The notes under the pieces were generated by a model that was not told the origin of the DNA, did not search any database, and worked only from the letters and a program-made list of their open reading frames with translations. A stretch of DNA of 62,541 nt from Chiloscyllium plagiosum (taxonomy: Eukaryota): the NCBI RefSeq assembly GCF_004010195.1, contig NC_057749.1, positions 18,718,487 to 18,781,027 of the forward strand. The letters run 5' to 3'. The position numbers were made by a program, and so were the translations under genes. The first letter of the stretch is position 1; each line of letters begins with the position of its first letter. Positions 5,561-59,730 of the stretch are shown here, piece by piece.

Positions 5561-5758
5561 GGTGGTGTGGACTGCAGATGCTGGAGATCAGAGCTGAAAA
5601 TGTGTTGCTGGAAAAGCGCAGCAGGTCAGGCAGCATCCAAGGAGCAGGAGAATCGACGTTTTGGGCATTCCTGAAGAAGAGCTCATGCCTGAAACATCGA
5701 TTCTCCTGCTCCTTGGATGCTGCCTGACCTGCTGCGCTTTTCCAGCAACACATTTTCA
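5561..5758. mobile_element. Fold-back Penelope-like terminal element (family A) with a degenerate hammerhead
   Basis: Inverted arms ~5596-5667 and ~5686-5758; TSD ccactat(g/a)tagta at 5548-5560 and 5759-5771; CTGAAGA...GAAAC at 5671-5695. Confidence 0.8.
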
Positions 5759-6721
5759 CCACTATATAGTAATTTGGTTTTCTTTGCCTGATCAGACTTA
5801 ATGGGATCTTGAATAAATCTTGATGACTTGGCAATTCCTATCAGATTTTCTACCTTGCAGGGAGTGGCAGAGGCGATTTGGGAGGTACAAAAGTGAGGGG
5901 CATAAGACAAACTTACTCCCATTTAGTTGAGGAATCAACTACGTGGGGTAGGTTCAAGGCAATGGATAGGAGGTTTGGATGAGGAAGGCACTGGATGGAA
6001 TCTGGAACTCTGCTTGTGTTGAGAAACCCTCAAACATAAAAGGATTTAGATGTGTACTTGCACTGCCAAAGCATACAAGGCTAAAGTTAAGAGTTGGAGA
6101 TTAGGATTAGAGCTTTTTTGACTAGTGCTGATACAATGGGCTGAAGAACCTTTTGTTATAAACATCAAACTATATCACTGTATTAGTACCTCTGGGTGTA
6201 CCCAGCTAGTGGTACAGGACCTATCCAGTGTTGTTCTGTAGCAACATCTATGCTTGACTGACTTTGAAAATCTTCCTCATCTTGAAACTGCTCCTGATAG
6301 GATATTTCAGGTGCAACAAGGCTGTTACTGTTAGCTCTGATTTCATTCCTTTGGGGCTTTTGATACAACAGATTACCCAAGGACTATCAGAGGATGGTTA
6401 AGATTAAACCACAATGGGTCTAAACCGGCTGACTTCCTCCCTAAAGTACAATGGTGAATTTGTTTTTATGGTCACTTGATTAATTCCAGAATGTCTAAAC
6501 TCAAATAACATAGGGTCAAATGCCAAGATTGTAGATTATGTTCCCCAGAGCATTATGTAAATTGTGGGATTATTAGTCCAATAACAATACCAGTCACCTG
6601 CAGTGACCTATACAGGAATAAGTTTTGCTGTTATTCCCAACTTTAGTTTACAGATTTAATCAACTTTCAAATTCTCCATTAAACTTTGCCCTGTCAATAA
6701 CAGATTAAACTTAATGGTGAA

Positions 6722-7899: not shown

Positions 7900-8860
7900 A
7901 GAAAGTGAGGACTGGAGATCAGAGTTGAAGAGTGTAGTGCTGGAAGAGCACAGCAGGTCAGGCAGCATCCGTAGAGCAGGAGAATCAATGTTTCAGGCTT
8001 AAGCCCTTCATCAGGAATGAGGCTTGTGGGCAAGGGCTGAGAGATAAATGGTGTTGGGGGAAGTATCTGGGAAAGCAATAGATGGAGGTGGTGGTGAAAG
8101 TGATAGTTTGAAGAGGAGGGTGGACAGGTAGGACTGTTCAAGAAGGCGGTGCTGAGTTGGAAGATTGAGACCAGGATAAGGTAGGGGAAGGGAAACGGGG
8201 AGTCTGGTGAAATCCACATTGATCTTGTGTGTTTGAAGGTTCCCATGGCAGGAGAGGAGGTGCTCTTCCTCCAGGTGTTGGGTGTTTACGGTTTGGCAAT
8301 GGAGGAGGCGCGGGACCTGCATCTCCATGGTGAAGTGGGAAGGGGAGTTAAAGTGTTCAGCCACAGGACAGTGAGGTTGGTTGGTGTGGGTGTCCCAGAG
8401 ACGTTCTCTGAAATGAACAGCAAGTTGGCATCCTGTCTCCCCAATGTAGGGGAGACTACATTGGGTGCAATGGATGCAGTAAACGTGTGTGGACAAATTT
8501 CTTATGGATGTGGAAGGATCCTTTGGGGCCTTGGACAGTGGTGATGGGGCAGGTGTGGGCGCAGCTTTTGTACTTCTTACGATGGCAGGGGAAGGTGTCA
8601 GGAAGGGAGGGTGGGGGCGTGGACCTAACAAGGGAGTCGCGGAGGGAATGGTCTCTCTGAAACACAGATAGGGGTAGAGAGGCAAGTATATCTCTGGTGG
8701 TGGGGTCTATTTTAGGTGGTGGAAGTGGCGGTGGATGATGCGGTATATCCGGAAGTTGGTGGGGTGGAAGGTGAGGACCAGGATTGTTCTATCCCTGTTG
8801 CAATTGGAGAGGTGGGGTTCAAGAGCATTGGTGCAGTAAGTGGAGGAGATGCATCCCAAA
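7900..8860 (-). mobile_element. Penelope-like element fragment (GIY-YIG endonuclease plus terminal repeat)
   Basis: Minus ORF 8011-8685 contains VYCIHCTQCSLPYIGETG and PVAEHFNSPSH; hammerhead-like motif at 7986-8014. Confidence 0.88.
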
Positions 8861-9207
8861 GACCTTGTAAGTAAAGGCACCAAGATGTTTGGAACAAATG
8901 GTTAAAAATTCAATTACTTAATCCTGAGTATCTGATCACAGGGAGAATAAAAGTTGTGTAATACAGTTAACTTCAACAGGATTAGAATTTTAAGTTTTAG
9001 TTGATACCCAGTGAAAGCAGTATTGAAATGTGGGCAGAAGTTGAGAACTGAGCAGTGTTGTGTCTGCCAACACATAATTGCAAACTTGCTGCTTAGACCT
9101 GTCTGATTGGTTGTGGGATCACTTGGCTGTCTCTCACGTTCTGCTTTTGCTATTTGGCATACAGGTAGTCCTATGTTGCAGCTTCACCAGGTTGATGAGT
9201 TTTTAGT

Positions 9208-14849: not shown

Positions 14850-17380
14850 CCCCTTTGGTGCTGAACAGAGACCTTGGAGTGCAGGTTCATAGCTTCTTGA
14901 AAGTGGAGTCGCAGGTAGATTGGATAGTGAAGAATCCTCCCACTTCCTCCAGACCAAGGGGGTAGCCGTATGGGCCCCAGCTATGCCTGTCTCTTTGTCA
15001 GTTACGTAGAACAGTCCATCTTCCGTAATTACACTGGCACCTCTTTCCCCCCCGCTACATTGATGACTGCATTGGCGCCACCTTGTGCTCCCGTGAGGAG
15101 GTCGAGCAATTCATCAACTTCACCAACACATTCCATCCTGACCTTAAATTTACCTGGACCATCTCTGACACCTCCCTCCCCTTCCTGGACCTCTCCATCT
15201 CCATTAATGATGACCGACTTGACACTGACATTTTTTTACAAACCCACTGACTTCCACAGCTACCTTGATTACACCTCTTCCCACCCTGCCTCTTGTAAAA
15301 ATGCCATCCCATATTCCCAATTCTTTCGCCTCCGCTGTATCTGCTCCCAGGAGGTCTGGTTCCACCACACAAAACACCAGATGGCCTTTTTTCGAGATCG
15401 CAATTTCCCTTCCCAAGTGAAGATGCCCTCCAACGCATCTCATCCACATCCCGCCCCTCCACCCTCAAACCCCACCCCTCCAACTGTAACAAGAACAGAA
15501 CCCTCCCCAGTCCTCACTTTCCACTCTACCAACCTTCGCATAAACCGCATCATCCGCCAATATTTCCGCCATTCCCAAACGGACCCCACCGCCAGGGATA
15601 TATTTTCCTCCCCACCCCTTTCTGCATTCCGAAAAGGCCGTTCCCTCCCCCCAACAACCCACCCTCACATCCTGGCACCTTCCTCTGCCACTGCAAGAAT
15701 CGCAAAACCTGTGCCCACCCCTCCTTCCTCACCTCCATCCACGGCACAAAGGAGCCTTCCATATCCATCAAAGTTTCACCTGCGCATCCACCAATATCAT
15801 TTAATGTATCCGTTGCACCTGATGCAGTCTCCTCTACATTGGGGAGACTGGATGCCTCCTGGCAGAGCGCTTCAGGGAATATCTCCAGGACACCCGCACC
15901 AATCAAACCCACCTCCCTGTGGCCCAACATTTCAACTCCCCCTCCCACTCTGCTGAGGACATGGAGGTCATGGGCCTCCTTCACCACCGCTCCCTCACCA
16001 CCCAACGCCTGGAGGAAGAACGCATCCTCTTCCGCCTCGGAACACTTCAACCCCAGGGCATCAACCTTTTCCGCAACCCCACCCCCTTTATCTCTCCACC
16101 CTGGAGGCTCCTGATGAAGGACTTTTGCCCGAAACGTCGATTTTCCTGCTCCTCAGATGCTGCCTGACCTGCTGTGCTTTTCCAGCACCACTCTAATCTA
16201 GCATCTGCAGTCCTCACTTTTGCCCAGTGAAGAAGACGTTTGGTATGCTTTCCTTTATTGGTCAGAGTATTGAGTACAGGAGTTGGGAGGTCATAGAGTC
16301 ATAGAGATGTACAGCATGGAAACAGACCCTTAGGTCCAACCTGTCCATGCCAACCAGATATCCCAACCCAATCTAGTCCCACCTGCCAGCACCTGGCCCA
16401 TATCCCTCCAAACCCTTCCTATTCATATATCCATCCAAATGCCTCTTAAATGTTGCAATGTACCAGCCTCCACCACATCCTCTGGCAATTCATTCCATAC
16501 ACGTACCACTCTCTGCATGAAAAAGTTGCCCCTGAGGTCTCTTTTATATCTTTCCCCTCTCGCCCTAAACCTATGCCCTCTAATTCTAGACTCCCCGACC
16601 CCAAGGAAAAGACTTTGCCTATTTATCCTATCCATGCCCCTCATATAATTTTGTAAACCTCTATAAGGTCACCACTCAGCCTCTGACGCTCCAGGTCAGG
16701 TTGTGGCTGTACAGGTCATTGGTTAGGCCTCTGTTGGAATATTGTGTGCAATTCTGGTCTCCTTCCTATCGGAAAGATGTGAAACTTGAAAGGGTTCAGA
16801 AAAGATTTACAAGGATGTTGCCTGGGTTGGAGGATTTGAGCTATAGGAGAAGTTGAATAGGCTTGGGTTGTTTTCCCAGGAGTGTCAGAGGCTGAGGGAT
16901 AGGTTTATAAAATCATGAGTGGCATGGATAGGATAAATAGACAAGGTCTTTTCCCTGGGGTGGGGGAGCCCAGAACTAGCAGGCAGAGGTTTAAGATGAG
17001 AGAGGAAAGATTTAAAAGGGACCTAAGGGATCTAATGGCCTTCAGGGAAGGAAACTGCTATCATTATCTGATTTAGCCTCTATGTTTCTCCAGACCCCCA
17101 GCAATGTAGTTGACTCTTAACTGTCCTCTGGGCAACTAGGGATGGGTAATAAGCCAACGACATCCTCATCCAATGAACGAATGAAAAAAAGGGCAACTAA
17201 GAGGGTGGTACTTGTATGGAATGAGCTGCCAGAGGAAGTGATGGAGGCTGGTATATGAACAGGAAGGGTTTAGAGGGATATGGGCCAAGTGCTGGAAAAT
17301 AGAACTAGATTAGGTTAGTATGTCTGGTTGGCATGCTTGGGTTGAGCCGAAGGCTTGGTTTCTGTGCTGTACAGCTCTCT
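14850..17380 (+). mobile_element. CR1/HER1 LINE 3' portion hosting three nested insertions
   Basis: RDLGVQVHSFLKVESQVD remnant resumes after each insert (Penelope 14935-16225, antisense CR1 ~16293-16693, SINE ~17032-17190). Confidence 0.8.
14935..16225 (+). mobile_element. 5'-truncated Penelope-like element (RT, GIY-YIG, terminal repeat with hammerhead)
   Basis: MGPSYACLFV, RYIDDCIG, YKPTDFHSYLDY, LYIGETG; hammerhead at 16111-16138; TSD agtgaagaa at 14926-14934 and 16226-16234. Confidence 0.92.
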
Positions 17381-17805: not shown

Positions 17806-20800
17806 GTAAGTCATTAGAATGAAGGAAAGCAACTAGATTGCTACAAAGTGTGGAATATTTTGAGGATTTATCCACTGGGATATGCCATTCTTTTTTTCCT
17901 GCTTCCTGTGCCCTTTATAACTGTTTTGTTGCTAATGCAACACTAACTCTGGCAAATAGAAAATACATGGATTAGTGATGGAGACAAAATTAACATTGAG
18001 TAGCATAATTCACAAATCTGGAGTAGCTTATGTTTTGATAGTGAATATTCCTTGATTGCACTCTGGCCTCAAAAATCTGAAACTTTTGTCCTCAATTTTG
18101 TTGTATTTGGATTTTACTGTTTTTATGTACCGCTTGCTGGCCTCCCACATTCTACCCTCCTGTTGACTGGAGCTCATCCAAAACCGCTGCTCAAGTTCTA
18201 AAGCGTAGCAAATTACCCCCATGCTTGCTGATTCAGAGTCAAGCAATGTCTTTGTTCTAAAGTTCTCATCTTTATTTTCAGTCCATCCGTAGTCTTGTGT
18301 CTCCTTTTCTCTGTAGTCGTCTCCAGCTCAACAATTCTTGGAGCTGACTTTGTTCCTCTAATTCTGGCCTTAGTATTGACCTGTATGGCTCAGTACTATG
18401 TTTTGTTTCATAATATTCGTGTAGACTCTTGGGATTATACTAAAGACACTATTTCACTGAGGTTTTGTTTGCTGAATCAGTTTTTGCCATTTCGAAGTAT
18501 AGTCATATAACCATGAAAACAAGAAAATCAGGTCTATATTGTTTGATTAAAGAGGTCCTTCTGCCTCTGATTGTACTTTTGTTCTTGCAAAACAAATTAT
18601 GCTTCTTTTGGGGAAATATAAATCTGTGGTATATTATGGGGGTAGCAGTGTTCATCTAAATTTATTGAATATCTGTACAAGGGTTTGAGAAGACAAGACC
18701 TCCATTTATAACCAAAGAAGACCATCGCTCAAAAATGCTGCAACTTGCATTTTAACTGAGATATTGCCACTGTAAATGATTATGAATCAATTGGTTCTGC
18801 AGCGCACGGCAGCAACTTCCTGTTGTTTTTCTCTGGTGGCAGAAGGTTTATTTTATACTGCCCTCCATCAAAAAGAAGGGTTTACACCTATTTAGCACCT
18901 TCACAACCTCATGATGTTCCAAAGTGCTTTTCAGCCAATGCAATGCATCCAGTGAGAATTGTTGTAATTTAAAAATGGAGGCAGCCAATTTGTACAAAAC
19001 AAGATCCCTCAAATGACTGTGATAGAGGCCAGGCATTGTCATAATGGCTTAAAAATAAAAACTGTGAGAGAATTGACTGAAGAAGGGTCACTGGATACGA
19101 AATGTTAACTCTCTGTTGCCAGATCTGCTGAGTTTCTCTAGCACCTTGTTTTTGTTTCAGATTTCCAGTTTTTCTTTTAATATTATAATGCTGCTGGCTA
19201 GTTTCTGTCAAGCTGATATTTTGGGAATATATCCTTCAGTTGCATTTTGTTACTTTTGAAGTACTAAAAAGGGAGCAATATTGTCACAAGAGCCATCCTT
19301 TGAATGCACCACTAAACTGAGGCCCATCTGCCCTCAAGTGAACATGAAATATCCCACTGCATTACTTCTAAAAAGGGCAAAAGGTTTCATCCTTTTACTG
19401 GCAAATGTTTATCTATCACTTTGTTTTAACAGGTCATTGTCAGGTTGTTGTTTGTGAGAGCTTTCTGTGTGCAAACTTGCTGCTACGTTTCCTAATTTAC
19501 AACAGCGGCTTCACTTCAAAAGTGCTTTATTGTTTGCAAAGAGCTTTGGAATGTCCAGAGGTTGTGAAAAGGACACTATGCAGATTCTCTACATTGTGCT
19601 GTATTTAAGCAAACACAACATAGTGCTGTACTGACCTCAATTTTTCTTTGTGCTTCTGCATCAAAAGGCAGCGACTGAATTATGTTAACCATGCAAGGCG
19701 TCTTGCCGAAGATGACTGGACAGGAGAAGACAGTGAGGAGGAACAAGAGGAGCATGACGAAATGGAAGTTGAGGTGGCAAAGAAGAAACTTCCCAAACGC
19801 TACGCAAACCAGGTTGGAAATATTCTGAGTTATTCACCAAGACAAGGCACTGATTGCAGCATAGTGATCAAGAATTGGGTCAAGCTTCAGCAGTAGGGTT
19901 GCTGCATAATCCCGAGGCAAATATGGAAAAATAAGGTGGGGCTCCCTGTCCTAATCCCTGCACATTGATCTTAATGGAAATTTGTACGTCTTTATAAGAT
20001 GTTGAGATGCAGATGTTGGACTGGGGTGGACAAGTTAAAAATCGCACAATAGCAGGTTATAGTCCAACAGGTTTATTTGGAAGTACAAGCTTTCAGAGCT
20101 ATCTGACAAAGGAGCAGCACTCTGAAAGCTTGTACTTCCAAATCAACCTGTTGGACTATAACCTGGTATTGTGCGATTTTTAACTTTACGTCTATATAAA
20201 TGAACCGAGGCTGTGTCAACTGTTAAATCAGTCAACAAAACCTGGGCCTGAAGAATACCATTGGTAATGCTGGGGAATTAAAGCCCAGTCAGACTCTTCA
20301 GCGATTCAGGAAGGAAAAGTGATGTGAGAGCTTCCCTCCGTCTGGTTTGCTCATTGGCCCATGCATTCATCTGCCCCAATTGCAGGGGTTAATAAAGTGA
20401 CACCTGTACAGGAGCTGGGAGTTTCTGGCTCAATGAAAATGTCCTAGTGGGTTAAAACATCTGGTAGTAAAGTTCAGGGCAAGGGACATAACCCTAAAAT
20501 TGAACATGGTCATGGATGATGGGTTGTGCTTCCTACAATTACAATAGTAACCACACGTCAAAGAGTCTTTCATTGACAGGAAAGCACTTTGGAATGTCCT
20601 GAGATTATGTAAATGTACCCTCTTTTTCTTGCACAATTTATTGTCCAGTTGTTTGTGGTTGAGCACTACAGCATCTGGAAGCCAGTTGTGCAAAGCAAGA
20701 TCCCACCAATACGCTAATGCCCAGATAATGCTAAAAGAAACTACTTGCTGTCAGAAGAAAAGACAGAATGTTCAACAAAAAGGACTCTGGGTAATCCAAG

Positions 20801-32800: not shown

Positions 32801-35800
32801 AATTTATTGTTTTTTCCAGTAAGGGAAATTGGGAGAGGATCTAAAATGGAAAGTATCTTAACAAATCTTTTGCTTTAATGTGCATACACCTAGAATTTTT
32901 CTTTTAATTAGTTTCTTGAAGATGGGCATTGTTGGCAAAGTCTAGCATCTCCAATTATCCTTGAACAGGGTGAGCTTCTGCCTTGAGCTGTGTAGACCAT
33001 GTTGTGAAGAACCACTGACCTTGCTGTTCAGGAGGGTGTTCCAAATCTTTGACCAAATGGAAACAAAAGAATGGCATGTTGTTCCACGTCAGGTTGACTT
33101 GGCGTTGTTTGTGTTTACATGCAGCTGCTGCCTTATTTCAACTCAGCAAGCGGTCACTAAATTTCAAGTTGCACTCAAAGAATATGAGTAGGTGAGCAAA
33201 GTTTATCATTTTGTTCTATTTGTGCTCAGCAGTTTGTAATGTCACTCCAGGATAGATGCCCACATGTGCTCCAGTTCGTCAATACTATTGCTTTGTATTG
33301 TACGCCTGCACCAGTCACCTAAATGCACAGACATAGTTAATAATGTGTGCTGCCAGTATGCAACGCTGTGTTATAGGGGTAAACATAGCCTTTTCTGTGA
33401 ACCTGCCAACTTTTGCGAATGTTGAAACATAAAAGAAAAACATTACCCGTAAATGATCTGAATGGAAGGTCACCAATTGAACCTTTTCCTGCGTCGAGTT
33501 CCAGTATTTGGCACAGACGTTTCACTGAAAAGGGAAGTAGCACTTGACCTATTACTCCTGGTTTTTGGTCTTTCAAGGAATTGAGTGATGTGGGAAGCAG
33601 GTTGTGAGTGACGCAGAAGATCAGCCATATTGTACTGAATGAGGTAAAAACACATTCCACCCTGACCTTAAATTTACCTGGACAATCTCTGACACCTCCC
33701 TCCCCTCCCTGGACCTCTCCATCTCCATTAATGACGACCGACTTGACACTGACATTTTTATAAACCCACCGACTCCCACAGCTACCTGGATTACACCTCT
33801 TCCCACCCTACCTCTTGCAAAAATGCCATCCCGTATTCCCAATTCCTCCACCTCCGCCGGATCTGCTCCCAGGAGGACCAGTTCCACCACAGAACACACC
33901 AGATGGCCTCCTTCTTTAAAGACCGCAATTTCCCTTCCCACGTGGTCAAAGATGCCCTCCAACGCATCTCGTCCACATCCCGCACCTCCGCCCTCAGACC
34001 CAACCCCTCCAACCGCAACAAGGACAGAACGCCCCTGGTGCACACCTTCCACCCTACCAACCTTCGCATAAACCAAATCATCCGCCGACATTTCCGCCAC
34101 CTCCAAACAGACCCCACCACCAGGGATATATTTCCCTCCCCACACCTTTCCGCCTTCCGCAAAGACCGTTCCCTCCGTGACCACCTGGTCAGGTCCACGC
34201 CACCCTACGACCCACCCTCCCATCCTGCCACTTTCCCCTGCCACCGCAGGAACTGTAAAACCTGCGCCCACACCTCCTCCCTCACCTCCATCCAAGGCCC
34301 CAAAGGAGCTTTCCACATCCATCAAAGTTTTACCTGCACATCCACTAATATCATCTATTGTATCCGTTGCTCCCGATGCGGCCTCCTCTACATTGGGGAG
34401 ACTGGGCGTGCGTGCAGGTGTGCGTGGATATAAGTGTGTGTGTGCGTGCGGGTGCGCGTGCATATATGTGTGTGTGCGCGTGTGTGTGACTCTGTGAGTG
34501 TGAGTGTGCTCCCCCACTCACCCATTGTACTCTATGCTACTTTCTCCCCACCCCCACCTTCCTCTAGCTTATCTCTCCAAGCTTCAGGCTCACTGCCTTT
34601 ATTCCTGATGAAGGGCTTTTGCCCGAAACGTCGATTTCGCTGCTCGTTGGATGCTGCCTGAACTGCTGTGCTCTTCCAGCACCACTAATCCAGAATATTG
34701 TATTGAATGACAGATCTGCCCTGAAGGGCCAAATGGAAATGTTTTCTCATATATAATTGTGTCCATATGACTACAGTAACTCCGTATGATGAGTGGATTT
34801 TAGACTTTCATGCCTCTTATGTGGGCTATCTGTGCTGTTTGCAACTGGTTGGTTGACTTCAACTAGGCCTGGATTTTGATGCATATAAACGGGGCCTTGA
34901 TTTAGCAGTTATTTTCATCCCCAACATTACCAGTTGCAGTATGGCACATGTACTTGGCTTGAGATAATTCTTAGCACCAAAGTCTTTTATCCTTGTGTAG
35001 AGACACAGCCTCCAATTGCTGCACCCTCTGCAGCGTGTGGATTGCCTGAGATTGCACATCTGATAAATGGGAGATTCTGGGTTCAGGCTTATTCTTGATA
35101 TAACTTGATTGATGAAGGAAAGAGGTTGCATTATTGTAACACCTTACAAAACCTCAGTGCTTTACAAGCAACTGTTTCTTGAAGTGGGACGTGTTCTGCA
35201 TGTGACACGAGAGTAGATTTGTACTCAGAATGGTCTCACAATCAGCAGTATGACAATGGCCAGATTATCCATTTTCATGAAGTTTATTGAGGGATAAATA
35301 TCAGGAGAATACAGAGAAGAACCTGATGAAGGGCTTTTGCCCGAAACGTCGATTTTCCTGCTCCTCAGATGCTGCCTGACCTGCTGTGCTTTTCTAGCAC
35401 CACTCTAATCTCCAGCATCTGCAGTACCCACTTCCACCGAAAAGAACCTCCCTTAAATAGTGCTATGGGATCTTATACCTTCATCTGAGAAGAGAGTTGG
35501 AAAGACCGTACCTCCTACAAGGTAGCCCTTCCTCAGTATTACACTCGAGGCAGTGTTTTGTACTTATGTCTCTAGAATGGACTTTCAAACCACAAGCTTC
35601 TGATGTGAGAGTGCATAGCTGACTCACTGAAAGATAAGTTTGTGATTCTTGAGCAGGAGACACACTTGTAATAATTGGCCTGTATGAAAAATGTGCAGGC
35701 TATATATTTTTATTTTTCTGTATCTTTAATCGTGGACTGAAGTTGGAGAACAGGACTATTGTAAAAGTAAGGAAGGAATTGTTTGGGTTCTATTTATTTG

Positions 35801-47800: not shown

Positions 47801-50800
47801 TTCCCTCCACTATCCCTGATTGGCCCTACCCTCACTCTGGCCATCCCCTTGTTCCTCACGTAAGTGTCAAATGCCTTAGGATCTTCCTTAATCCTGCTAA
47901 AGCTTTATCATGCCCCTTCTAGCTCTTCTAAGTCCATTCTTCAATTCCTTCCTGGCTACCTTGTAACCCTCTAAAGCCCTGTCTGATTATTGCCGCCTCA
48001 ACCTTAAGTAAGCTTCCTGCTTCCTCTTGACTAGATGTTCCACATCCCTTATCGTCCAAGGTTCCTTCACCCTATCATCCCTTCTTTGCCTCAGTGGGAC
48101 AAACCTATCTAGCACTAACAGCAAGTGCTCCCTAAACAACCTCTTCATTGCTGTTGTGCATTTCCCTGAGAACATCTTTTCCCAATTTAGGTGCCCCAGA
48201 TCCTGTAATAGCATTGTAACTCCCCCTCCCCCAATGAAATAATTCCCATACTGTCTGCTGCTATCCCTCTCCATGAGTATAGTAAAGGTCAGAGAGTTGT
48301 GATCACTGTCACCGAAATGCTCGTCCACTGAGAGATCTGACACCTAGCCAAGTTTGGTGCCAAGCACCAAATCCAATATGGTCTCCCCTATAGTCAGTCT
48401 ATCTGCACATTGAGTCAGGAATCCTTTCTGGACATACCTGACAAAAACTGCTCCATTCAAACAATTTGATTAGCAAAGCCATTCCTCCACCTCTTCTGCC
48501 TCTCTCCCTATTCCTTTTGAAACATCTAAACCCTGGAACATCCAACAAGCATTCCTGCTCCTGTGATATCCCAAGTCTGAAGTGGGCACAACATCGTAGC
48601 TCCAAGTGCTGATCCATGCTCGAAGTTAATTATTCTTATTCCTTCTTACTTGGGTTAAAATAGAGACACTTCAACCCATCACACTAACTGCAACATTGTT
48701 CATCAACTGTCTGTCCCGAATCACAGATTCTCTGCACACTGTATCTTGCTGTTCACTAGTTATTCCGTCTTCCGATCCATAGCAATGGTTCCCACCCCCC
48801 TGTCAAACTAATTTAAACCTTCCTGAAGGACTCTAGCAAACCTCTCGCCTAGGATATTGGTACCCCTCCAATTCAGGTGTAACCTGTCCTCCTTGTACAG
48901 GTCCCACCTTCCCCAGAAGGTATCCCACTAATCCACATATCTGAAGCCCTCCCTCCTACATTAGCCCTGCAGTCACGTGTTTATCTGCACTCACTCTCTG
49001 TTCCTCGCCTCACTAGCACATGGAGCTGGTAGCAGTCCTGAGATTGCTACTCTGCTCATCCTGCCTTTTAGCTTCCAAGCTAACTCCCTATATTCTCTCT
49101 TCAGGCCCTCATCCCTTTTTCCTAGCCATGTCGTTGGTGCCAATGTGTACCACAACTTCTGGCTGCAGCACACCTTCCTTATACACAGTGGCTCTGAATT
49201 TCAATTCAGCTTGATAGACTGGGATCAAAGTCTCTTTGTAAAAGATGACACCATGGGAATCCATCATATTAGACTGGCCATAAACCTGACCCAAACTTGT
49301 CAATACCCACATGGGTTGTAGGATAGTTAGTACTGAAATTGAAATGTCACTTTAATCAGATGCTGATTTACTTCTGTGTTGGGAGTTCAGAGAGAGCTTC
49401 AGTCCTGTGGCAAGCTGCATCTTAAATTTATTGCTAATGAAATTGTTGCTAATTTCTAGCACTGACATCCTTCATTTGACAAGCAGAGAATAATTTCCTT
49501 GTCAGCTGTGGAGCATCATCATTAAAAGTGTGACCAATTAAAATTAAATTCCATACCATATTTTACTTCCAAAGGAGCTGAAATAGAGAGGAGGAGTTTG
49601 ATTCAATTGTGCAGAGTCACAGGACGTGGGCATAACTGGTTAGGCCAGCATTTATTGGTCATTCCCTAATTGTCCTTGTTAGACCTCAGCTGGAATATTG
49701 TGTACAGTTATGGGCACCACATTATAAGAAAGATGTAAATGCATTGGAGACCCAATTGCTGTGGGTCTGGAGTCTCACAAAGGCAAGGCCAGGCCAGGCC
49801 AGGTGAGGTAAAGATGGCAGATTTCCTTCCCTAAAGAACATTAGTGGACCAGATGGATTTTTCCTGACAATCAGCAGTGTTTTCAGACTGTTAATTCCAG
49901 ATTTTTTAATTGAGTCCAATTTCCACCATCGCCATGGCGAGATTCAAACCCAGCCCCCAGATTATTACCGGTGCCTTTGGATTAATAGTCTAATCATAAT
50001 TCTAGGCCATTGCCTCTGATACCTACTTTGCAAGAGATTAAAGGGGACACAGTGTAGATTCACCAGTGACATGTAGACTTAAAAGAATAAATTAGGACTC
50101 TGGCAGGTTGCATGTTTAATTGATTTGATCTAATGAAGGTGTTTAAAATGTTGGAATTTAATATTTTGTGGTTTTGAAGCTTGAAAGTTCGTAGCAAATT
50201 ATCATAGCCAGCAGTCTTACCCTGGTACGCAACCAAAATACCGCAGAGGCTGAAAATCTGAAACGAGAACTGCAAGTGCTCAGCAGGTCAGGCAGCTTCA
50301 GTGGAGAGAGAAACAGAGTTAATATTTCGGGGCAGTGGTCTTTCACCAGAAATGAAAGAAGTTACTCATGTACTTCTGTTGGTTTCATTTTTATTTTAGT
50401 TCTGGCATAATATATCATATTTTCCTTAGGCAGTATGATTGGTAACTTGTGAAAGGAAGTGTCATTTTTACTGGGCATGTATTTGCTTTGAGGTGCACTT
50501 TACTAATATATTCAGAATTTGGGAGAAGATTTGTAGCTCGGGTGCTCGTTGTTGTGGTTCTGTTCGCCGAGCTGGGAATTTGTGTTGCAGACGTTTTGTC
50601 CCCAGTCTAGTTGACATCCTCAGTGCTTGGGAGCCTTGGCTCCCAAGCACTGAGGATGTCACCTAGACAGGGGACGAAACGTCTGCAACACAAATTTCCA
50701 GCTCTGCGAACAGAACCACAACAATATATTCAGACTCCTACTGTTCTATGCTAAACGTAAATGGGCCTCCTATTTGAACAAGGTGCTCTGTCTCATATAT

Positions 50801-53221
50801 GCAATTAGAAAGAACGTTTATAAAATCTTGAAGCAATACTAAAAAAGTGAACATGGAGACCTGTAAACATGGAACACAATTTTGATTTGAAAGGAAAACA
50901 GACTGGATGGTATTTTGGCCCAGTCCTGAACCTTTGTTATAACTCAGCTGGTTAGGCAGTGAAGCATCAAAGACTGAAACCTTGTTCTTCTAAACATACA
51001 ACTTTTACTTACATACAAGCATCTCGCTTACCATACACCTTGCATCAATTTTGCTGCTATTTTTATGCTTTTGGGTGCTCAAATGATCAGATTAACTAAT
51101 TAGAGGATCACCGAATTAACCCATTAGGGGCTGGTTCTTTAACAAAACCTAAATATTCAAAGGAAACTTAGAAAACTAAACTAAAATGTCATCCCTGGGG
51201 TTGATGCGCTCAGCCACTGCAGTGCCCATTGGTCATAGGAGGGTTCAAACATCCCATTGGACACTGCACGCTTCCTTTCCAGGGGCATTCGGAAGATGCC
51301 CTGTGTTAGAGCACAGATGAGCCCCCAGTTAATACTCACTACCTTAAAACTGTTTACAATAGCTGCTGTGAAGAAGTAAGGAAAAACGGATGAAGGCTGA
51401 TGTGTACTAAGTGAAAGGAAACGTAATGTTGGGACAGAAATTACAGTCTGCAGTTCCAAAATCAAGGTTGAATCCAGAAGCTATGAAGAGTCTAATTGTC
51501 AGTTTGAAGAACAGCACCTCATCTTTCAAGTGATTGATGTGAAATATTTGATGTATTTAAAGGGAGTCTAGATAACGTGAGGCAGAAGTAAGTAAAAGAT
51601 TAGGATAATGGGTGGGTGGGTGGCTGGATTCTTGAGTGGAACATGAACATTGGCATGCACTTGTTTGGGAACCAGGCTCCATTCATCATTTTTTTTAAAA
51701 GCTGTTTTTGGCCTGTAAGCCAGTAGTACATTTGGATTGTCAATACTGTTGAGAAGTACAAAGGTCAATCTCTCTCTTCTCTCCACAGTTTAAGTTTGTG
51801 GGCCTGCCAAGTTTGCCATGTACACCAGAAGCCATTTGCCAGACTTTGGCTGCAGTTTATCCATTTGAGGTAATTAAAACTGTTCTAAACATGTCTCTAC
51901 ATGTTTCATTCACTCTCCTCTACTCGGTTTTTCTCTAAGTAGCTAGTTCTTTCCCTAAAACACAGCAGATTATATTTTTCTATTACCTCCAATTAGAGTA
52001 ACATAGATTGCCGAATCTCAGTTGTGATTCCAAATGAGTTCATTGTTAGAAGTGTTATGATTCTCCTGTCATAAGGGAACTTTGATGTATGATAACTCCA
52101 TTTACCATATTCCAATACACTGGCTTTTCATTCCATTTTAATCTCTGCCATGGTTCACTGGGTTATCATTCTAGTCTGAGTTAAAAGCTTAAATGTTTAT
52201 GTCCCACTGCAAATGCTTGAGCAGAAAATTTGGGGTGGGGCTGGGGAGAAGATAGCTGAGAGTGCAATAGGTGGTTGGAGGTGGTGGTAAAGGTGATAGG
52301 TTGGAGAGGAGGGTGGAGTGGATAGGTGGGAAACCAGATTGACAGGTAGGACAAGTCATGAGGACAGTGGATGAGATGTTAAACTGAGACCTTGTTTGTC
52401 TCTTCTCCCTAGCCCCCACCACCACCACCCACCATACACCACCACCCACCAAACACCACTTTGAAGACGAGCAGTGGAATTATCTCCAGTACTCTGACCA
52501 ATGCATCTGTCGACCATGATCGCTAAAACAGATGACCTCGTCATTTTCACCTTATTGCTTGTGTTCCCTTCAACATAACAGTGATGAGGCTTGTTTAGCT
52601 GTGAAATGTTTAGGGAAAGATGCAATGTAAATACTATATATCTGTTTCCTTTTAACTTTTTTGTCTGATCTCTCCCTTTTGTTCCCTTGTCCTCATTTAC
52701 TCGTTCCCTTTTTGACACAATCTTGTCTGACACCAGACCCCTCTTTCTGTTTGCGTGCTCATTCAGTATTTTAATCATTTTAAGTGTAAAAGGAGTGTGT
52801 CAGGATGAATGTGTTTAAGAAACTGAGGTCCCATGTTAAGTTGGGTCCCCCTTCCTCTCCAGAATAGGTGTGTGATCTGAAATGTGCCTTGCAGGTGGAT
52901 GGGTTGCTGTTTTACCACAAGCAGACACACTACACCCCGGGGAGCACGCCGCTAGTTGGCTGGCTGAAACCGTACATGGTGGCTGACATCCTTGGATTGG
53001 CTGTCCCGGCCTGCCCTTTGTCCGTGAAGCCCGAATATGCCAACTCACAAATGCAACAGATAATCGAGCTGAAAAAGAGCAAGGCCGAGGGGTACAGCAC
53101 TAACCCGAGCAAGACGGAGACCGCTGGGTTGGGCCGATATGAATTGGAGCATCTCTCCACTCCCAAAAAAGCTGGATCATCGCCCTCTAAAATGGAATGC
53201 ACGAGTAAAATCAGAAGCTGA
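17648..53221 (+). CDS. SNUPN: Snurportin-1 (m3G-cap snRNP import adaptor), 8 coding exons, 1092 nt, 363 aa
   Basis: Exons 17648-17805, 19668-19812, 37244-37348, 38970-39066, 44107-44204, 44876-44956, 51789-51869 and 52895-53221 are all GT-AG with matching phases. N-terminal IBB region (MDELSQAL...HPRLAQYK...[14 protein letters not shown]); cap-binding Trp equivalents in LMLSEW and PLVGW. Confidence 0.98.
19668..19812 (+). CDS. SNUPN: SNUPN exon 3
   Basis: [19 protein letters not shown]...[10 protein letters not shown]|gttgga. Confidence 0.95.
19998..20186. mobile_element. Fold-back Penelope-like terminal element (family B)
   Basis: Inverted arms ~20032-20099 and ~20118-20186; TSD tacgtct(t/a)tataa at 19985-19997 and 20187-20199. 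Confidence 0.8.
20890..25120 (+). mobile_element. Near full-length degenerate CR1/HER1 LINE (esterase ORF1, APE, RT)
   Basis: IGDS motif ~21750, [28 protein letters not shown] ~24240, 3' tail ~25110; HE1 fragment nested at 23140-23345. Confidence 0.88.
25740..26056 (-). mobile_element. Young HE1-like V-SINE
   Basis: Complete head, V-domain and (agatt)n tail; CpGs retained; short TSD acaga. Confidence 0.92.
27060..27990 (+). mobile_element. CR1-type LINE 3' fragment
   Basis: [30 protein letters not shown]. Confidence 0.8.
28930..31850 (+). mobile_element. Degenerate CR1/HER1 LINE ORF2
   Basis: [28 protein letters not shown]; small Penelope-type insert at ~30905-31055. Confidence 0.85.
31935..32430 (-). 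mobile_element. CR1/HER1 3' end, antisense
   Basis: [19 protein letters not shown] on the minus strand; tail at ~31935. Confidence 0.8.
33643..34694 (+). mobile_element. Young 5'-truncated Penelope-like element
   Basis: ORF 33903-34433 ends in [26 protein letters not shown]; CpGs retained; intact hammerhead core at 34605-34632; 16-bp TSD atattgta(c/t)tgaatga at 33627-33642 and 34695-34710. Confidence 0.93.
34605..34632 (+). ncRNA. Minimal hammerhead ribozyme motif, sense to SNUPN
   Basis: CTGATGA-A-GGGC-TTTT-GCCC-GAAAC-GTC. Confidence 0.72.
35323..35350 (+). ncRNA. Minimal hammerhead ribozyme motif at the start of a solo Penelope terminal repeat (35322-35438)
   Basis: Core identical to 34605-34632; flanked by an aagaacct duplication. 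Confidence 0.72.
36570..36618 (+). mobile_element. 49-bp Penelope family-B terminal micro-insertion
   Basis: aaacctgttggactataacctggtg...tttttaac with a perfect 13-bp TSD cctgttttggaaa (36557-36569 and 36619-36631). Confidence 0.75.
37244..37348 (+). CDS. SNUPN: SNUPN exon 4
   Basis: cttgcag|[35 protein letters not shown]|gtaagt. Confidence 0.97.
38100..38830 (+). mobile_element. Old CR1/L2-type LINE 3' fragment
   Basis: Degenerate LGLFSLE..LRG.LIEVFKI and RGHSL remnant. Confidence 0.65.
38970..39066 (+). CDS. SNUPN: SNUPN exon 5
   Basis: ggtcag|[32 protein letters not shown]+G|gtaaac (not in the ORF track). Confidence 0.95.
40140..41415 (-). mobile_element. CR1/HER1 LINE fragment, antisense
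   Basis: [28 protein letters not shown]; tail at ~40140. Confidence 0.85.
42530..43290 (-). mobile_element. CR1/HER1 LINE 3' fragment, antisense
   Basis: Tail tagaatcatacagcatggaaac; LQKRFTR remnant. Confidence 0.8.
43361..43654 (+). mobile_element. HE1-like V-SINE
   Basis: gggcggcacggtagcacagtggttagc head, (aatct)n tail, TSD ataatg. Confidence 0.9.
44107..44204 (+). CDS. SNUPN: SNUPN exon 6
   Basis: ctccag|(D)[32 protein letters not shown]|gtgtgt. Confidence 0.97.
44876..44956 (+). CDS. SNUPN: SNUPN exon 7
   Basis: aatatag|[27 protein letters not shown]|gtgagt. Confidence 0.95.
45180..46075 (-). mobile_element. Old CR1/L2-type LINE 3' fragment interrupted by the exon 7 copy
   Basis: LINE-like sequence (atccaatgcccttcttgaa...; atctactctatcc...tcaagtctcct) continues on both sides of 45435-45545. 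Confidence 0.7.
45435..45542 (+). pseudogene. SNUPN: Duplicated copy of SNUPN exon 7 with splice flanks (pseudo-exon or possible alternative exon)
   Basis: 45456-45536 matches exon 7 at 75/81 nt and is an open frame ([27 protein letters not shown]); acceptor TAG changed to TCG; donor is GTGATT. Confidence 0.9.
46415..49170 (-). mobile_element. CR1/HER1 LINE with internal deletions, antisense
   Basis: VVVHIGTND (esterase), HFGDSDHN (APE), [13 protein letters not shown] (RT), EYCVHFWSP. Confidence 0.9.
49622..50015 (-). mobile_element. SINE-like repeat (related copies at 17032-17190 and ~6420-6595)
   Basis: ggcagatttccttccctaaagaacattagtg core recurs in the window. Confidence 0.6.
50518..50722. 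mobile_element. Fold-back Penelope-like terminal element (third family) with hammerheads on both strands
   Basis: Near-perfect palindrome ~50549-50724 centred at ~50636; TSD aatatattcaga at 50506-50517 and ~50723-50734. Confidence 0.85.
50647..50686 (+). ncRNA. Minimal hammerhead ribozyme motif
   Basis: gca-CTGAGGA-T-GTCACCT-agac-AGGGGAC-GAAAC-GTC-tgc: stem I gca/tgc, stem II, palindromic ACGT stem III. Confidence 0.75.
51789..51869 (+). CDS. SNUPN: SNUPN exon 8
   Basis: ctccacag|[27 protein letters not shown]|gtaatt. Confidence 0.95.
52895..53221 (+). CDS. SNUPN: SNUPN exon 9 (last coding exon)
   Basis: ttgcag|[28 protein letters not shown]...[10 protein letters not shown]...KIRS*. Confidence 0.97.
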
Positions 53222-53323: not shown

Positions 53324-53933
53324 AGTTACATTTGAGCTTTCATTCCAGCAGGCTCTTATTGAATGGGAATTGTTGAGAGATGAAGTTTGGGGCTTGTGCC
53401 TTTGCTTGTTCTTGCAGTTTGACAGTGCACACATTCAGAGTAAGTGGGTTATTTGTCTCGAGCTTCGGTATGTGCTGTTCCTGCACAAGGCTGGTGAGTC
53501 AATCATTTAATGAGAGGAAGCAGAATAACACTCACTGGGAACATTCCCATAGTTATACTTAATAAGGGGGAGGTTGTCAGGGCATTTGTGAACATCAAGT
53601 GTCTGTTAGCATTTGGTTCTATATTGAGCTGAAACCCAATGAGAGGCTTGAGTTATAAGTTAGCTTTTTTAATACTGCAGGTTAGGAATTGGTGCATTAT
53701 TTTTTGATATATTGCAGTACAAAGGTAGATGAGCAAATTTTGTCAGAGGTATTGGAAATACAGAGGTTAACTCTTAAGCACATTGTCCATTTGGGTAAAA
53801 CCATACAGATCTGGAAAAGCTAGCCCTTTCTGAACTCATTTGAAGGTGTGCTGCCATTGAGTCAACTTGTCCTGACAAATCTGTAGTTGCCTGCTGGGCA
53901 CGTGTGCAGCTTTACACAACTTCCAATCAACAT

Positions 53934-54143
53934 TAAGTTAAAAATCTCACAACACCAGGTTATAGTCCAACAGGTTTAATTGGAAGCTCACTAGCTTTCT
54001 GAGTGCCGCTCCTTCATCAGGTGGTTGTCCATGAAGGAGCTGCGTTCCGAAAGCTAGTGTGCTTCCAATTAAACCTGTTGGACTATAACCTGGTGTGTGA
54101 TTTTTAACTTTGTACACCCCTGTCCAACACCGGCATCTCTAAA
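53934..54143. mobile_element. Fold-back Penelope-like terminal element (family B) downstream of the SNUPN stop codon
   Basis: Inverted arms ~53935-54017 and ~54031-54110; TSD tccaatcaacat at 53922-53933 and 54144-54155. Confidence 0.85.
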
Positions 54144-54499
54144 TCCAATCAACATGATTGTGTCAGCGTTCCTTCCAGTGATGAATGCAGTCCACTTCTC
54201 CATGTATGTGTTTGGTTGATCCTCGGGTCATAGGAAGGTTGGAGATGAGCCATCATTTTCAAAAACGAAATGTTGCTGAATTTGAGGTTTAATGTCTCTT
54301 CTTGAACAATTGTCCTCTGCAATATCTCTGTGGAAATGCAATAATCGGTTTTGCTGGCTGGAAATCCTGTGTTTTTATTTTGTCTGCTTTATCCCAGGCC
54401 ATTGTTTCTCAAGGTTGATTTATAGCTTTTCTGAAAGTGTTCAGCACTGTGCTGAGGATGATTGATTGTACTATCCACCAGTCTGGTGACCTGCTTTTT

Positions 54500-55970: not shown

Positions 55971-56377
55971 AAAGAATCGCATTTGCTTTTGAATTATCTT
56001 AATAACTGCTACAGGGTGGCTTCTGTTAGAGACAAAAAAAACTGCAGCTGCTAGAATCCAAGATAGACGAGCAGGAGGCTGGAAGAACGCAGCAAGCCAA
56101 GCAGCATCAGGAGGTGGAGAAGTCAATGTTTCCGGTGTATGCTGCTTGGCTTGCTGTGTTCTTCCAGCCTTTGTTCGTCTACCTTGGATTCCAGCATCTG
56201 CAGTTTTTTTGTCTCTAACAGAAGCCACCCTGTAACATAGAGTCATGGAGATGTACAGCATGGAAACAGACCCTTTGGTTCAAACCATCCATGCTGACCA
56301 GATATCCCAACCCAATCTAGTCCCACCTGCCAGCACCCGCAGTTATTAAGATAATTCAAAAGCAAATGTGATTCTTT
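55971..56377. repeat. Large inverted duplication around a Penelope-type terminal repeat, with a CR1 tail inserted in the right arm
   Basis: 55971-~56106 is the reverse complement of ~56139-56234 plus 56339-56377. Confidence 0.85.
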
Positions 56378-57234: not shown

Positions 57235-57249
57235 TATGCAGTAGTTCAG

Positions 57250-57469
57250 AATCAAGACTATAGTGCTGGAAAAGCTCAGCAGGTTAGGCAGCATCTGAGG
57301 AGCAGGAAAACCGACATTTCAGGCAAAAGCCCTTCAGCATTTCTTGATGAAGGGCTTTTGCCTGAAACGTCGATTTTCCTGCTGCTCAGATGCTGCCTAA
57401 CCTGCTGTGCTTTTCCAGCACCAGACTCTTGACCCTAATCTCCAGCATCTGTAGTACTCACTTTCGTCG
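57250..57469. mobile_element. Fold-back Penelope-like terminal element (family A)
   Basis: Inverted arms ~57252-57336 and ~57348-57432; TSD atgcagta(g/c)ttcag at 57236-57249 and 57470-57483. Confidence 0.85.
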
Positions 57470-59730
57470 ATGCAGTACTTCAGTCTGGAAAAGACCCGTT
57501 CATCATGAGTATTTTCTATCCCTTAGCCATTCTTTGCTGTGCTATTCCTGACCGTTTTATCCCATGGGCTTCAATTTCACCAGCAAGGTGATATGGTTAG
57601 GGTTTGATGTTTCATCAGACACCTTTTTTGAAGTCCACAGTGTAACATGAACTCGGGTGCACTCATCCTTGCTAACTGCTACACCATCAAAAAGTGCAAT
57701 ATACTTAGTCAAACGCAGATTTGCCATATAACATCCAAGCTGTTTTTTTTTTGTAGTCTGTGCTTGTCCAAGCAGCTATTGATTTTCTTACAGATTTTTT
57801 TTTTCTAAAAGGTTTCGCTTACCACCATTGTTAACCAGATCTAACAAGTACAGACCAGCCAATTTTTCTCTTTTGGCTAATTGTATGAAGGTTGTATGTT
57901 TTGCCATATGGCTTCTGGCACCATCCCGGTATTTAACGAGGATTGGAAGATTGGCTGGCACTCTGCAACTCACTCCCTTTCCTCTGACACTAATAATGCA
58001 TTGTATCCAGTCCTGGTGACCTGCACAGTGTTGCTCTTCAGGAGAGATGTTAAACCAAGGTCTGATTGAGGAGGATGATAGAAATCCTAGGGTACTGTTT
58101 GCAGGTGTGTCCATTTCACTCTCCACCAACATACTAATAACGGACCAACTGCTAAATTCTGTATACACTCTTCATGACAATGACTGACTTCAGGCTGTAG
58201 TAGACAGATTTTTGGTATCTCTGGGGTCAGAGGATTTGGGAGAGTTGACATGAAATTGAAAGTGAAATTGAAACCCAAGGTCTACCATGATTGTATTGAG
58301 AGGCTGAGCAGGCTCAATGGGTCATGTGGCCTTATGTTTCCATTTCTTATGTGTTCTATCTAGTTCATGAAACTGCATTACCAATGTATCAAGGATGTTT
58401 CTACAAATAGTACTTATGAAGTTTCTGACATCTGTATTGTGAAACTGATTGCTTTCTTGCAATTCTCATCACTTATCCTCTAAAGGTGTCAGCTCAGCAA
58501 TGAGTAAATGAGCAGTTTGTCACCTGAATCAGCAGGTCACGTGTTTAAGCCTCAATTCAGAAAATTTGGCATAAAATCAAGAAAGATGTTCCAGTGCACC
58601 ACTGCCAATGGTGCTGTCTCTTGTAGATTCAATTTTAAAGGGCAAAGGACTTGTCCCCCCAATATTCTGGTGAATATTCATCCTTCAGTTAGTATCATTC
58701 AAACCAAATAACTGGCAAACCGTTTTGCTCTCACTATCATCTCCATAACTTCAGATGTTGAGATGATTGTGTCCTTGTGAGGGGTGGCACCTTTGGGACT
58801 AATACTGGCTCATTTTTGGTTGTCAGCTTATATCTATCAACCTTACTTTAGTTGAAGCATTGTGTACTGATGTTAGACTTCAGTCCAATGTCAGGATTTT
58901 AATTTGGAGTGTCAATAAACATCCATTCTCCCTTCTATCTTTTGTTATAATTAAAAGCATTGCATGTGGGGTGTAGATAGTGAGACGGCATGCCATCATT
59001 CGTATTTCTTGACTTCGTACGCAAGGCAGTTCAGTCCATTGTGTTTGTGCCAGCTCTTCTGAAAAAACTGTCCAATTGGTGTAAGAACCCTGCAAACCTT
59101 TCATTTACAAGTGTCTCTCTGGATCTCTTTGAAAGCTGGCTGTGTTTAGACATAAGTGGAAAACATGGAACGCTTGCACTGGAGTCTGACAAGAAATTAC
59201 TCTTGTCTGTTCCTCCGAAATTCATTCAAAGCAGCAATGAAACAAATAACCAAACTGCAACAATTTCTTGCATTAAATTTTAATGAGTAAAATCAGGGAA
59301 GCACTGCAACAATTGCAATTAGCCTGTAAATTTATTTGCAAATTGGTACTTTTGGTGTGTGATAGGCTCTGAGTCACAATGTTAACTCTACACTGCACCT
59401 GTATGGAGGTCACTACACTCATGAGTGAAACTACAAGTGAAAAAGTGGACCATAGCAGCTGTTTTTGAGTAGAGAACAAACATCATTTGAAGTTATTATT
59501 GACTTTGCTTCCATCACCCTTTCAGGCTATCCATTCAAGGTCATAGCAACTCACTGAATAAAGAAATTTCTTGTCTCCCTCCGGAATTTTTGTCGTGCCA
59601 AAGAAAACTTTCCATTCACAAAAAATTAATCTATCCCATCCTTGGGAAAAAAATGTCCATATCCTTGGCCATGTTGGTGACTCAATTGCTCTTTTCCCAA
59701 CTTCCCTCCCTTCCCACCCACTTCTAACAA

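What the first reader, a model, noticed from the sequence alone, without database searches (positions are those of the whole stretch)
50506..50734. Recurrent ~200-bp fold-back, hammerhead-centred retro-elements with 12-14 bp TSDs (best example)
Seen: four short elements share one architecture, TSD - inverted terminal repeat - central hammerhead motif(s) - terminal repeat - TSD; a fifth of the same form lies near 5.6 kb. They are at 5561-5758 and 57250-57469 (family A), 19998-20186 and 53934-54143 (family B), and this one (a third family). Here the + arm has a complete minimal hammerhead (gca CUGAGGA U stem II GAAAC GUC ugc) and the - arm a near copy. Established: Penelope-like retroelements carry minimal hammerheads in their pLTRs and often form inverted termini. 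Inference: independent families converge on the same product, which is either a stereotyped integration outcome (strand switch near the ribozyme) or a non-autonomous, retrozyme-like class. In a transcript the antisense arm would sequester the ribozyme.
Basis: partly seen in the sequence, partly recalled or inferred. Interest (0 to 1): 0.72.

Follow-up and report, generated by a model that had tools for sequence, protein, structure and literature searches.

The report
Fold-back stubs of Penelope retrotransposon ends
These ~200-base hairpins are real but ordinary: dead stubs left when Penelope-like jumping genes of a shark-type genome insert only two mirror-image copies of their ribozyme-bearing end, in a pattern already described for this class.

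Summary
All five fold-backs and their 12-14 bp target duplications are real. The 50.5-kb arm is the end repeat of a Penelope-like element (PLE). One frame matches the N-terminus of a shark reverse-transcriptase ORF (36/39 aa); another matches the C-terminus of a GIY-YIG-type ORF. Family A arms follow RT/GIY-YIG remnants in this window. Family B was tied to no ORF. Public runs show a very abundant family, two fixed 3' ends, copies running on past this centre, and eight differing fold-back joints. Centres also differ within families here; none lies at the ribozyme cut site. So each hairpin most likely formed at insertion, and the retrozyme and MITE tests fail. Only 1 of 10 arms keeps an intact core, predicted fully sequestered. 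The insertion sits in a SNUPN intron and is shared by three organisms. The scan noted this pattern before on other DNA of this genome. No genome-wide junction census was possible.

The parts
50505..50517 (+). Left target-site duplication (12 bp match in the window, probably 13 bp originally), AT-rich
   Evidence: (A at 50735 in organisms B and C)
50518..50549 (-). One-sided PLE 'tail'; continues the reading frame of the ORF N-terminus
   Evidence: family ends at 50518/50511 and 50548-50551 in public runs
50550..50636 (-). Tailed arm: pLTR copy starting 13 nt upstream of hammerhead C3
50587..50626 (-). Minimal hammerhead copy with G12>A; ORF start codon at 50617-50615
   Evidence: sequence
50637..50637 (.). 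Head-to-head junction, one base that fits neither arm
   Evidence: against the loose-end consensus upstream of 50638
50638..50722 (+). Untailed arm: pLTR copy starting 12 nt upstream of C3; encodes the last residues and stop of the element ORF in one frame and the ORF start (ATG 50656-50658) in another
50647..50686 (+). Minimal type I hammerhead with intact core; predicted cut after C50683
50723..50735 (+). Right target-site duplication
5548..5771 (.). Family A fold-back with 13-bp duplication (1 mismatch), tail on the left, 16 nt between arms
57236..57483 (.). Family A fold-back with 14-bp duplication (1 mismatch), tail on the right, 5 nt between arms
19985..20199 (.). Family B fold-back with 13-bp duplication (1 mismatch), tail on the left, 21 nt between arms
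53922..54155 (.). Family B fold-back with perfect 12-bp duplication, tail on the right, 13 nt between arms
14931..16230 (+). Long family A copy: broken RT-thumb and GIY-YIG remnant followed directly by the family A hammerhead end (C3 at 16111)
33643..34696 (+). Second long family A copy: ORF remnant 92% identical to shark protein P0001, then the hammerhead end at 34605
7902..8874 (-). Third long family A copy: ORF remnant then the hammerhead end at 8014
52868..53221 (+). Context: frame holding the last coding exon of SNUPN (snurportin-1); other exons near 17.7 and 37.3 kb, so the 50.5-kb and 20-kb elements are intronic

Best explanation
Each element is a dead-on-arrival insertion of an endonuclease-bearing Penelope-like retrotransposon, made of two head-to-head copies of its end repeat (pLTR: minimal hammerhead plus ORF start), one ending at the short 3' end and one at the tail end. 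The hairpin is built anew at each insertion and is not the unit that moves. SHOWN here: arm identity for families C (50.5 kb) and A, two discrete 3' ends, one tail per element, 12-14 bp AT-rich duplications, variable centres away from the cut site. FROM PRINT: a PLE protein cuts and extends both strands at AT-rich DNA, starts reverse transcription at two internal sites that bound the tail, and does not need ribozyme cleavage (PMC11167929). INFERRED (about 0.55): a 12-14 nt staggered cut gives two primers, each starts at one of the two sites on uncut sense RNA, both cDNAs stop near the 5' edge of the hammerhead (RNA start, intron edge or stem II), and the ends are joined head-to-head; gap filling makes the duplication. 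The families converge because they share this chemistry.
For: Arm plus tail matches residues 13-51 of P0040 (36/39), an RVT_1 protein (E 3.9e-11) with the DKG motif. P0052 ends in the peptide of the arm's other frame and has a GIY-YIG-type motif. The ATG overlaps the start of stem II, as in the anole element. Family A ends follow RT/GIY-YIG remnants in 3 window copies. One tail in 5 of 5 elements; loose ends at the tail end (50518: 78, 137, 43 contigs) and the short end (50548-50551, 50723-50724) with mixed flanks (agreement 0.36-0.61); shared upstream continuation past 50638 in 143, 99 and 52 contigs and 138 reads (agreement 0.69-0.91); 8 listed antisense-to-sense joints, all different; depth just left of the centre about 1-1.5% of that just right of it. 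Arkhipova 2013 describes pLTR covering the ORF start, a 31-bp tail, an inverted pLTR and 8-10 bp TSDs; Cervera 2014 reports opposite-strand minimal hammerhead pairs 100-700 bp apart from truncated PLEs.
Against: No whole genome was held, so there is no copy-by-copy junction census. The 8 joints are single contigs at likeness 85, which the tool says may come from repeats; 11 joints, 576 loose-end rows and 23130 pieces were not shown; contigs represent near-perfect palindromes poorly. Some ends called at 50518 probably run on to 50511. Family B was linked to no ORF. Pfam GIY-YIG was not hit by P0040, P0046 or P0052 and was under cut-off for P0157 and P0001. No empty site was seen. Duplications are longer than the 8-10 bp in the rotifer paper. 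Partner arms were each other's best match for the 5.6- and 20-kb elements only, not for those at 54 and 57 kb. The double-priming step is untested.
Confidence: 0.88

Rival explanations
1. Same PLE origin and per-insertion formation, but by self-priming (snap-back): one strand is made, folds on itself near the hammerhead and is recopied; Arkhipova 2013 proposed this on an antisense template.
For: Gives exactly one tail and arms from one source without further assumptions; the centres at 50.5 and 57 kb are almost symmetric; published proposal.
Against: Snap-back of a tail-primed strand predicts that the unpaired centre belongs to the tailed arm; it belongs to the untailed arm in 3 of 5 (5.6, 20, 54 kb). 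Family RNA in run X21 is about 87-89% one polarity, read as sense. In vitro both strands are extended.
Confidence: 0.3
2. The fold-back unit is a non-autonomous element that is transcribed and re-copied whole by PLE proteins (retrozyme-like or SINE-like class).
For: Similar size (about 190-235 bp) in three families; very high abundance of the family; retrozymes are reported to derive from pLTRs; pLTRs alone can mobilise DNA in trans.
Against: Centres differ within families A and B and among family C copies. The hammerheads lie on opposite strands, so no unit-length circle can be cut; 9 of 10 arms are damaged; the intact one has pairing probability 0.0 in the whole element; no read from this locus among 368 laid (2% of run X21).
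Confidence: 0.06
3. MITEs of a TIR DNA transposon that happen to resemble hammerheads.
For: About 200 bp, inverted repeats, flanking duplications, no long ORF.
Against: The repeat does not abut the duplication on one side; duplications vary from 12 to 14 bp; the arm is the start and end of an RT ORF; solo and ORF-linked single arms occur in the window.
Confidence: 0.02
4. The intact hammerhead in the SNUPN intron is kept by selection as a regulatory ribozyme or hairpin.
For: The intact core lies on the SNUPN sense strand; the insertion is shared by organisms A, B and C.
Against: Arms differ at 5 of 86 positions and flanks differ by about 4% between A and B, so one intact core in ten arms needs no selection (inference). 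Forcing the ribozyme fold costs about 72 kcal/mol. Minimal hammerheads are inactive as monomers in vitro.
Confidence: 0.03

Closest known systems
Insertion units of EN+ Penelope-like elements with inverted pLTR and tail (Arkhipova 2013 PMC3846280; Craig 2021 PMC8557442)
   Same: pLTR covering the ORF start, head-to-head inverted 5'-truncated copy, 30-40 bp tail on one end, target duplication.
   Different: Here both arms are cut down to the pLTR, so no ORF body is left; duplications are 12-14 bp against 8-10 bp in the rotifer; copy number is far higher.
Poseidon element of Anolis carolinensis, PAc (Frangieh 2024 PMC11167929)
   Same: ORF start at the beginning of hammerhead stem II, cut site 26 (PAc) or 28 (here) nt from the start codon, two ends bounding the tail in an AC-rich stretch, AT-rich targets; family C proteins lack the zinc-finger linker, as expected for Penelope/Poseidon.
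   Different: The ends lie at about +69 and +100/+107 here against +111-118 for the main PAc start; the parts read do not treat fold-back products; clade was assigned by linker only, no tree.
Minimal hammerheads of metazoan PLEs (Cervera and de la Pena 2014 PMC4209133)
   Same: Short helix I, extra base before a long helix II, palindromic helix III; opposite-strand pairs close together were reported in Schistosoma.
   Different: Sharks are not named in the parts read; activity was not tested here.
Non-LTR retrozymes (Cervera and de la Pena 2020 PMC7229834; Li 2026 bioRxiv 10.64898/2026.07.22.740005)
   Same: Short, non-coding, hammerhead-bearing, related to pLTRs.
   Different: Retrozymes are same-strand tandem repeats that yield circular RNA; these are opposite-strand pairs with mostly damaged minimal cores.

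Membership tests
EN+ Penelope-like element (insertion remnant) | End repeat belongs to an ORF with a PLE-type RT (DKG motif) | tested here: met
   Family C. Family A. Not shown for family B.
EN+ Penelope-like element (insertion remnant) | C-terminal GIY-YIG endonuclease | tested here: inconclusive
   Family A: P0001 E 2.5e-4 just under cut-off, 3 of 5 proteins scanned reach it. Family C: motif present in P0046 and P0052, but 0 of 7 scanned reach the Pfam cut-off.
EN+ Penelope-like element (insertion remnant) | pLTR overlaps the ORF start and holds a minimal hammerhead | tested here: met
   Family C; hammerhead at the same place in A and B.
EN+ Penelope-like element (insertion remnant) | Optional 30-40 bp tail at one end | tested here: met
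   32-35 nt in 5 of 5; two end classes in three organisms.
EN+ Penelope-like element (insertion remnant) | Adjacent inverted 5'-truncated copy, head to head, whole unit flanked by a TSD | tested here: met
EN+ Penelope-like element (insertion remnant) | Placement in a named clade by RT phylogeny or Repbase/Dfam match | not testable with these tools
   No Repbase or Dfam held. Linker only: absent in family C relatives (Penelope/Poseidon-like), present in 4 of 5 family A proteins parsed (Neptune-like).
Non-LTR retrozyme | At least two consecutive same-strand units each with a complete type I hammerhead | tested here: not met
   Opposite strands; 1 of 10 arms intact.
Non-LTR retrozyme | Canonical type I hammerhead with efficient self-cleavage | tested here: not met
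   Minimal motif, 3-bp helix I, no Rfam hammerhead match; cleavage itself not tested.
Non-LTR retrozyme | Abundant circular RNA of unit length | not testable with these tools
   Only a polyA single-cell run was laid; no locus reads and no end pile-up.
TIR DNA transposon / MITE | Inverted repeats abut the TSD at both ends | tested here: not met
   32-35 nt extension on one side in 5 of 5.
TIR DNA transposon / MITE | Fixed short TSD and uniform copies | tested here: not met
   12-14 bp; centres differ.
TIR DNA transposon / MITE | Ends shared with a transposase-coding parent | tested here: not met
   Ends are shared with RT-coding ORFs.

The most novel reading that the evidence does not exclude
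A minority of these palindromic stubs are re-copied whole by PLE proteins, because they carry both priming sites in each direction, forming a hairpin-shaped non-autonomous PLE class whose ribozyme is switched off by its own antisense arm. The data make this unlikely for this element's centre but do not exclude it for other centres, since no genome-wide census was possible.
Probability: 0.06. Interest if true: 0.6.

Novelty: new member of a known kind. Interest (0 to 1): 0.2.

Why it matters
As a discovery it matters little: the architecture is in print and the scan has noted it many times in this genome. Its use is as a test bed. How PLEs make inverted ends and tails is still open, and a 2024 in vitro study found two start sites and extension of both strands. 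A genome with very many short fold-backs lets one count tails per insertion, duplication lengths and which arm owns the centre, and so tell double priming from snap-back. My searches (listings only) showed no paper that does this, and none on these shark families. The stubs can also be mistaken for MITEs or microRNA hairpins.

Tried and rejected
Rfam found no hammerhead; weak miRNA matches were rejected as generic hairpins. Pattern scans: metagenome contigs gave 2 loci, both chance 20-21 nt matches without extension; viral and prokaryote genome contigs gave 0. Pfam on 12 window ORFs gave 0 hits, the remnants being broken. PDB search with P0040 gave nothing informative. No RNA holder was listed for the stretch. 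The RNA run showed no locus reads and no pile-up of ends at the cut site; with 2% of a fragmented polyA library read, this says nothing on cleavage. Summed contig depth (up to 3.1 million against 7 on the flank) was not converted to a copy number. Arm-to-arm identity did not separate one template from two. Searches of earlier findings by place (near), by sequence and by words returned nothing. Centre at the cleavage site, MITE, retrozyme and selected ribozyme were considered and rejected as above. For gene context, 145 of 177 non-repeat frames were scanned.

Full report
OBSERVATION. The five elements are pairs I2-I6 of the 22 inverted repeats in the window, with arms of 66-110 nt at 85-97% complementarity. 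The element at 50506-50734 folds at -166 kcal/mol, z -22.6, and none of 200 shuffles folds as well. Flanking direct repeats of 13-14 bp with at most one mismatch were found for 5 of 5, against 3 of 1500 random site pairs reaching 12 bp; the four other inverted structures tested had none. The duplications are 69% A+T against 58% for the window. Reading the same alignments, 3 of 10 arms keep both hammerhead core boxes, and only the + arm at 50647-50686 also keeps G10.1-C11.1 and the palindromic helix III. Rfam matched no hammerhead model.

WHAT THE ARMS ARE. The tailed arm of the 50.5-kb element (family C) translates to 40 residues. A search among longer proteins gave 1 hit among 11 candidates, P0040, named by its source as an uncharacterized Chiloscyllium punctatum protein (E 2.3e-12), matching its residues 13-51 at 36 of 39. 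P0040 has an RVT_1 domain (E 3.9e-11) and the DKG motif that Craig 2021 names as a diagnostic PLE region. A relative, P0052, carries a GIY-YIG-type motif and ends in the peptide that the arm encodes in another frame. The arm thus holds both the end and the start of the element's ORF, which is what a pLTR is. The start codon overlaps the beginning of hammerhead stem II, as in the anole element PAc. Pfam support for the endonuclease is weak in this family: 0 of 7 proteins scanned reach the cut-off. Family A ends follow broken ORF remnants at 14.9-16.2, 33.6-34.7 and 8.9-7.9 kb; one remnant is 92% identical to shark protein P0001 and has RT and GIY-YIG relatives. A zinc-finger linker is present in 4 of the 5 family A proteins that my pattern could parse (of 7 tried) and in none of 8 family C relatives, which points to Neptune and Penelope/Poseidon types by the criterion; no tree was built. 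Family B was tied to no ORF and rests on architecture alone. I did not determine the species; the nearest named proteins are from carpet sharks.

IS THE HAIRPIN THE MOBILE UNIT? In the window, arm starts relative to hammerhead C3 are +15/-2 (5.6 kb), -2/+1 (57 kb), +16/0 (20 kb), +3/-8 (54 kb) and -13/-12 (50.5 kb), tailed arm first (family B values corrected by one for the reference offset). They differ within both families, and none lies at the cut site (+27 to +33), so the templates were uncut RNA, as in vitro. Single arms with and without tails, and ORF-linked arms, occur in the same window. Four of 24 listed runs were laid on 50300-50950: 9495, 10072 and 3431 contigs in three organisms and 368 RNA reads. 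Loose ends with mixed flanks fall at the tail end (50518 and 50511) and at the short end (50548-50551, 50723-50724). Upstream of 50638 the family continues with a shared sequence in 143, 99 and 52 contigs and 138 reads. Eight listed antisense-to-sense joints all differ (50538/50638, 50542/50638, 50546/50709, 50553/50668, 50560/50706, 50571/50650, 50583/50686, 50592/50655). None of the 24 listed pieces crosses this element's centre, and depth just left of it is 1-1.5% of that just right of it. Limits: each joint is one contig at likeness 85, most rows were not shown, contigs handle palindromes badly, and depth is no copy number. This is support, not a census.

AGE AND CONTEXT. The right junction is present in organisms A, B and C and the left in B; no empty site was seen. 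The arms differ at 5 of 86 positions and the flank by about 4% between A and B, which fits an old fixed insertion in neutral decay (inference). Pfam places snurportin-1 exons near 17.7, 37.3 and 52.9 kb on the + strand, with a polyA signal at 53318, so the element lies in a SNUPN intron with the intact hammerhead on the transcribed strand, after its antisense arm. Ribozyme stems pair at about 0.7-0.8 (inner stem II 0.4) in the bare motif, about 0.01 in the whole arm and 0.0 in the element; forcing them costs about 72 kcal/mol. Family RNA in run X21 is about 87-89% of one polarity, read as sense; none came from this locus.

MECHANISM. PAc protein cuts and extends both strands at AT-rich DNA, is predicted to be a dimer, starts at two internal sites that bound the tail, and inserts without ribozyme cleavage. 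I infer that a 12-14 nt staggered cut supplies two primers, one for each site, that both cDNAs stop near the 5' edge of the hammerhead, and that they are joined head to head. One tail in 5 of 5 fits coupled site use (chance about 0.03 if each arm chose freely; small sample). The rival is self-priming. Snap-back of a tail-primed strand would leave the centre on the tailed arm, but it is on the untailed arm in 3 of 5. I put identity and per-insertion formation at 0.88 and double priming at about 0.55.

COMPARISON WITH PRINT. Arkhipova 2013 (PMC3846280; passages and Discussion) describes a pLTR covering the first ORF codons, a 31-bp tail, an inverted pLTR and 8-10 bp duplications. Craig 2021 (PMC8557442; passages) and a curation guide (PMC8969392; passages) list inverted copies and tails as general PLE features. 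Cervera 2014 (PMC4209133; parts 1-2 of 4) reports opposite-strand minimal hammerheads 100-700 bp apart and ascribes most motifs to truncated PLEs. Frangieh 2024 (PMC11167929) was read in parts 1-2 of 4. Retrozymes are same-strand tandem repeats (PMC7229834, passages; bioRxiv 10.64898/2026.07.22.740005, parts 1-3 of 5); these elements fail that test. Searches (listings only) showed no paper on these shark families or on double priming in PLEs. I saw no supplements; those of Frangieh (Fig. S1, S2), Cervera 2014 and the 2026 preprint may bear on junction structure and on shark families, and Repbase and Dfam were not available. Hammerhead numbering and MITE criteria are partly from my own knowledge.

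VERDICT. Real, well explained, and of a known kind; 106 of 157 earlier notes on this genome fit a look-up for the same words, and the 8 shown reach a similar reading (unchecked AI notes, not counted as evidence). Interest 0.2.

Noticed in passing
window 17555-53323 (+): Host gene SNUPN (snurportin-1): Pfam hits at 17555-17806, 37154-37456 and 52868-53218, stop at 53221, AATAAA at 53318. The 54- and 57-kb elements lie beyond it.
   Followed up: partly
window 5151-5290: A sixth, more decayed family A fold-back with one tail, arms starting at +10 and +44 from C3, no duplication found.
   Followed up: partly
window 55968-56380: Fold-back of an A-like family with longer arms (about 170 nt, with a T run); a 101-bp piece of another repeat interrupts the right arm at 56238-56338; no duplication found.
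   Followed up: partly
window 16530-17029: Inverted pair of 115-nt arms 270 nt apart made of a different, multi-copy repeat without hammerhead; no duplication found.
   Followed up: partly
window 13017-13335, 19077, 30992, 35965, 50257-50360: Copies of a further, older hammerhead-bearing family; 13017-13137 (+) and 13200-13335 (-) stand tail to tail.
   Followed up: no
window 50318-50328 joined to 50510-50550: Several contigs in three organisms join family C ends to the older family near its hammerhead; may be insertion of one PLE into the end of another, or a bias of the stretch laid.
   Followed up: no
window 12623-12797: A family B end (+, tailed) and a family A end (-) stand tail to tail 14 nt apart.
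   Followed up: no
window about 14000-14830: Run of N (829 in the window) just 5' of the long family A copy, where an inverted or tandem copy could hide.
   Followed up: no
one search hit list: After the query itself, the best-scoring relatives of the family C protein are from a trematode (50% identity) and unnamed assemblies, with many tapeworm proteins; only fragments from sharks. May reflect annotation bias or transfer; no tree built.
   Followed up: no
window 50724 and 50548 (run X21): One unknown locus with the short end supplies many RNA reads (46 and 13 loose ends that are reverse complements), so at least one family C copy elsewhere is in a polyA-primed transcript.
   Followed up: no
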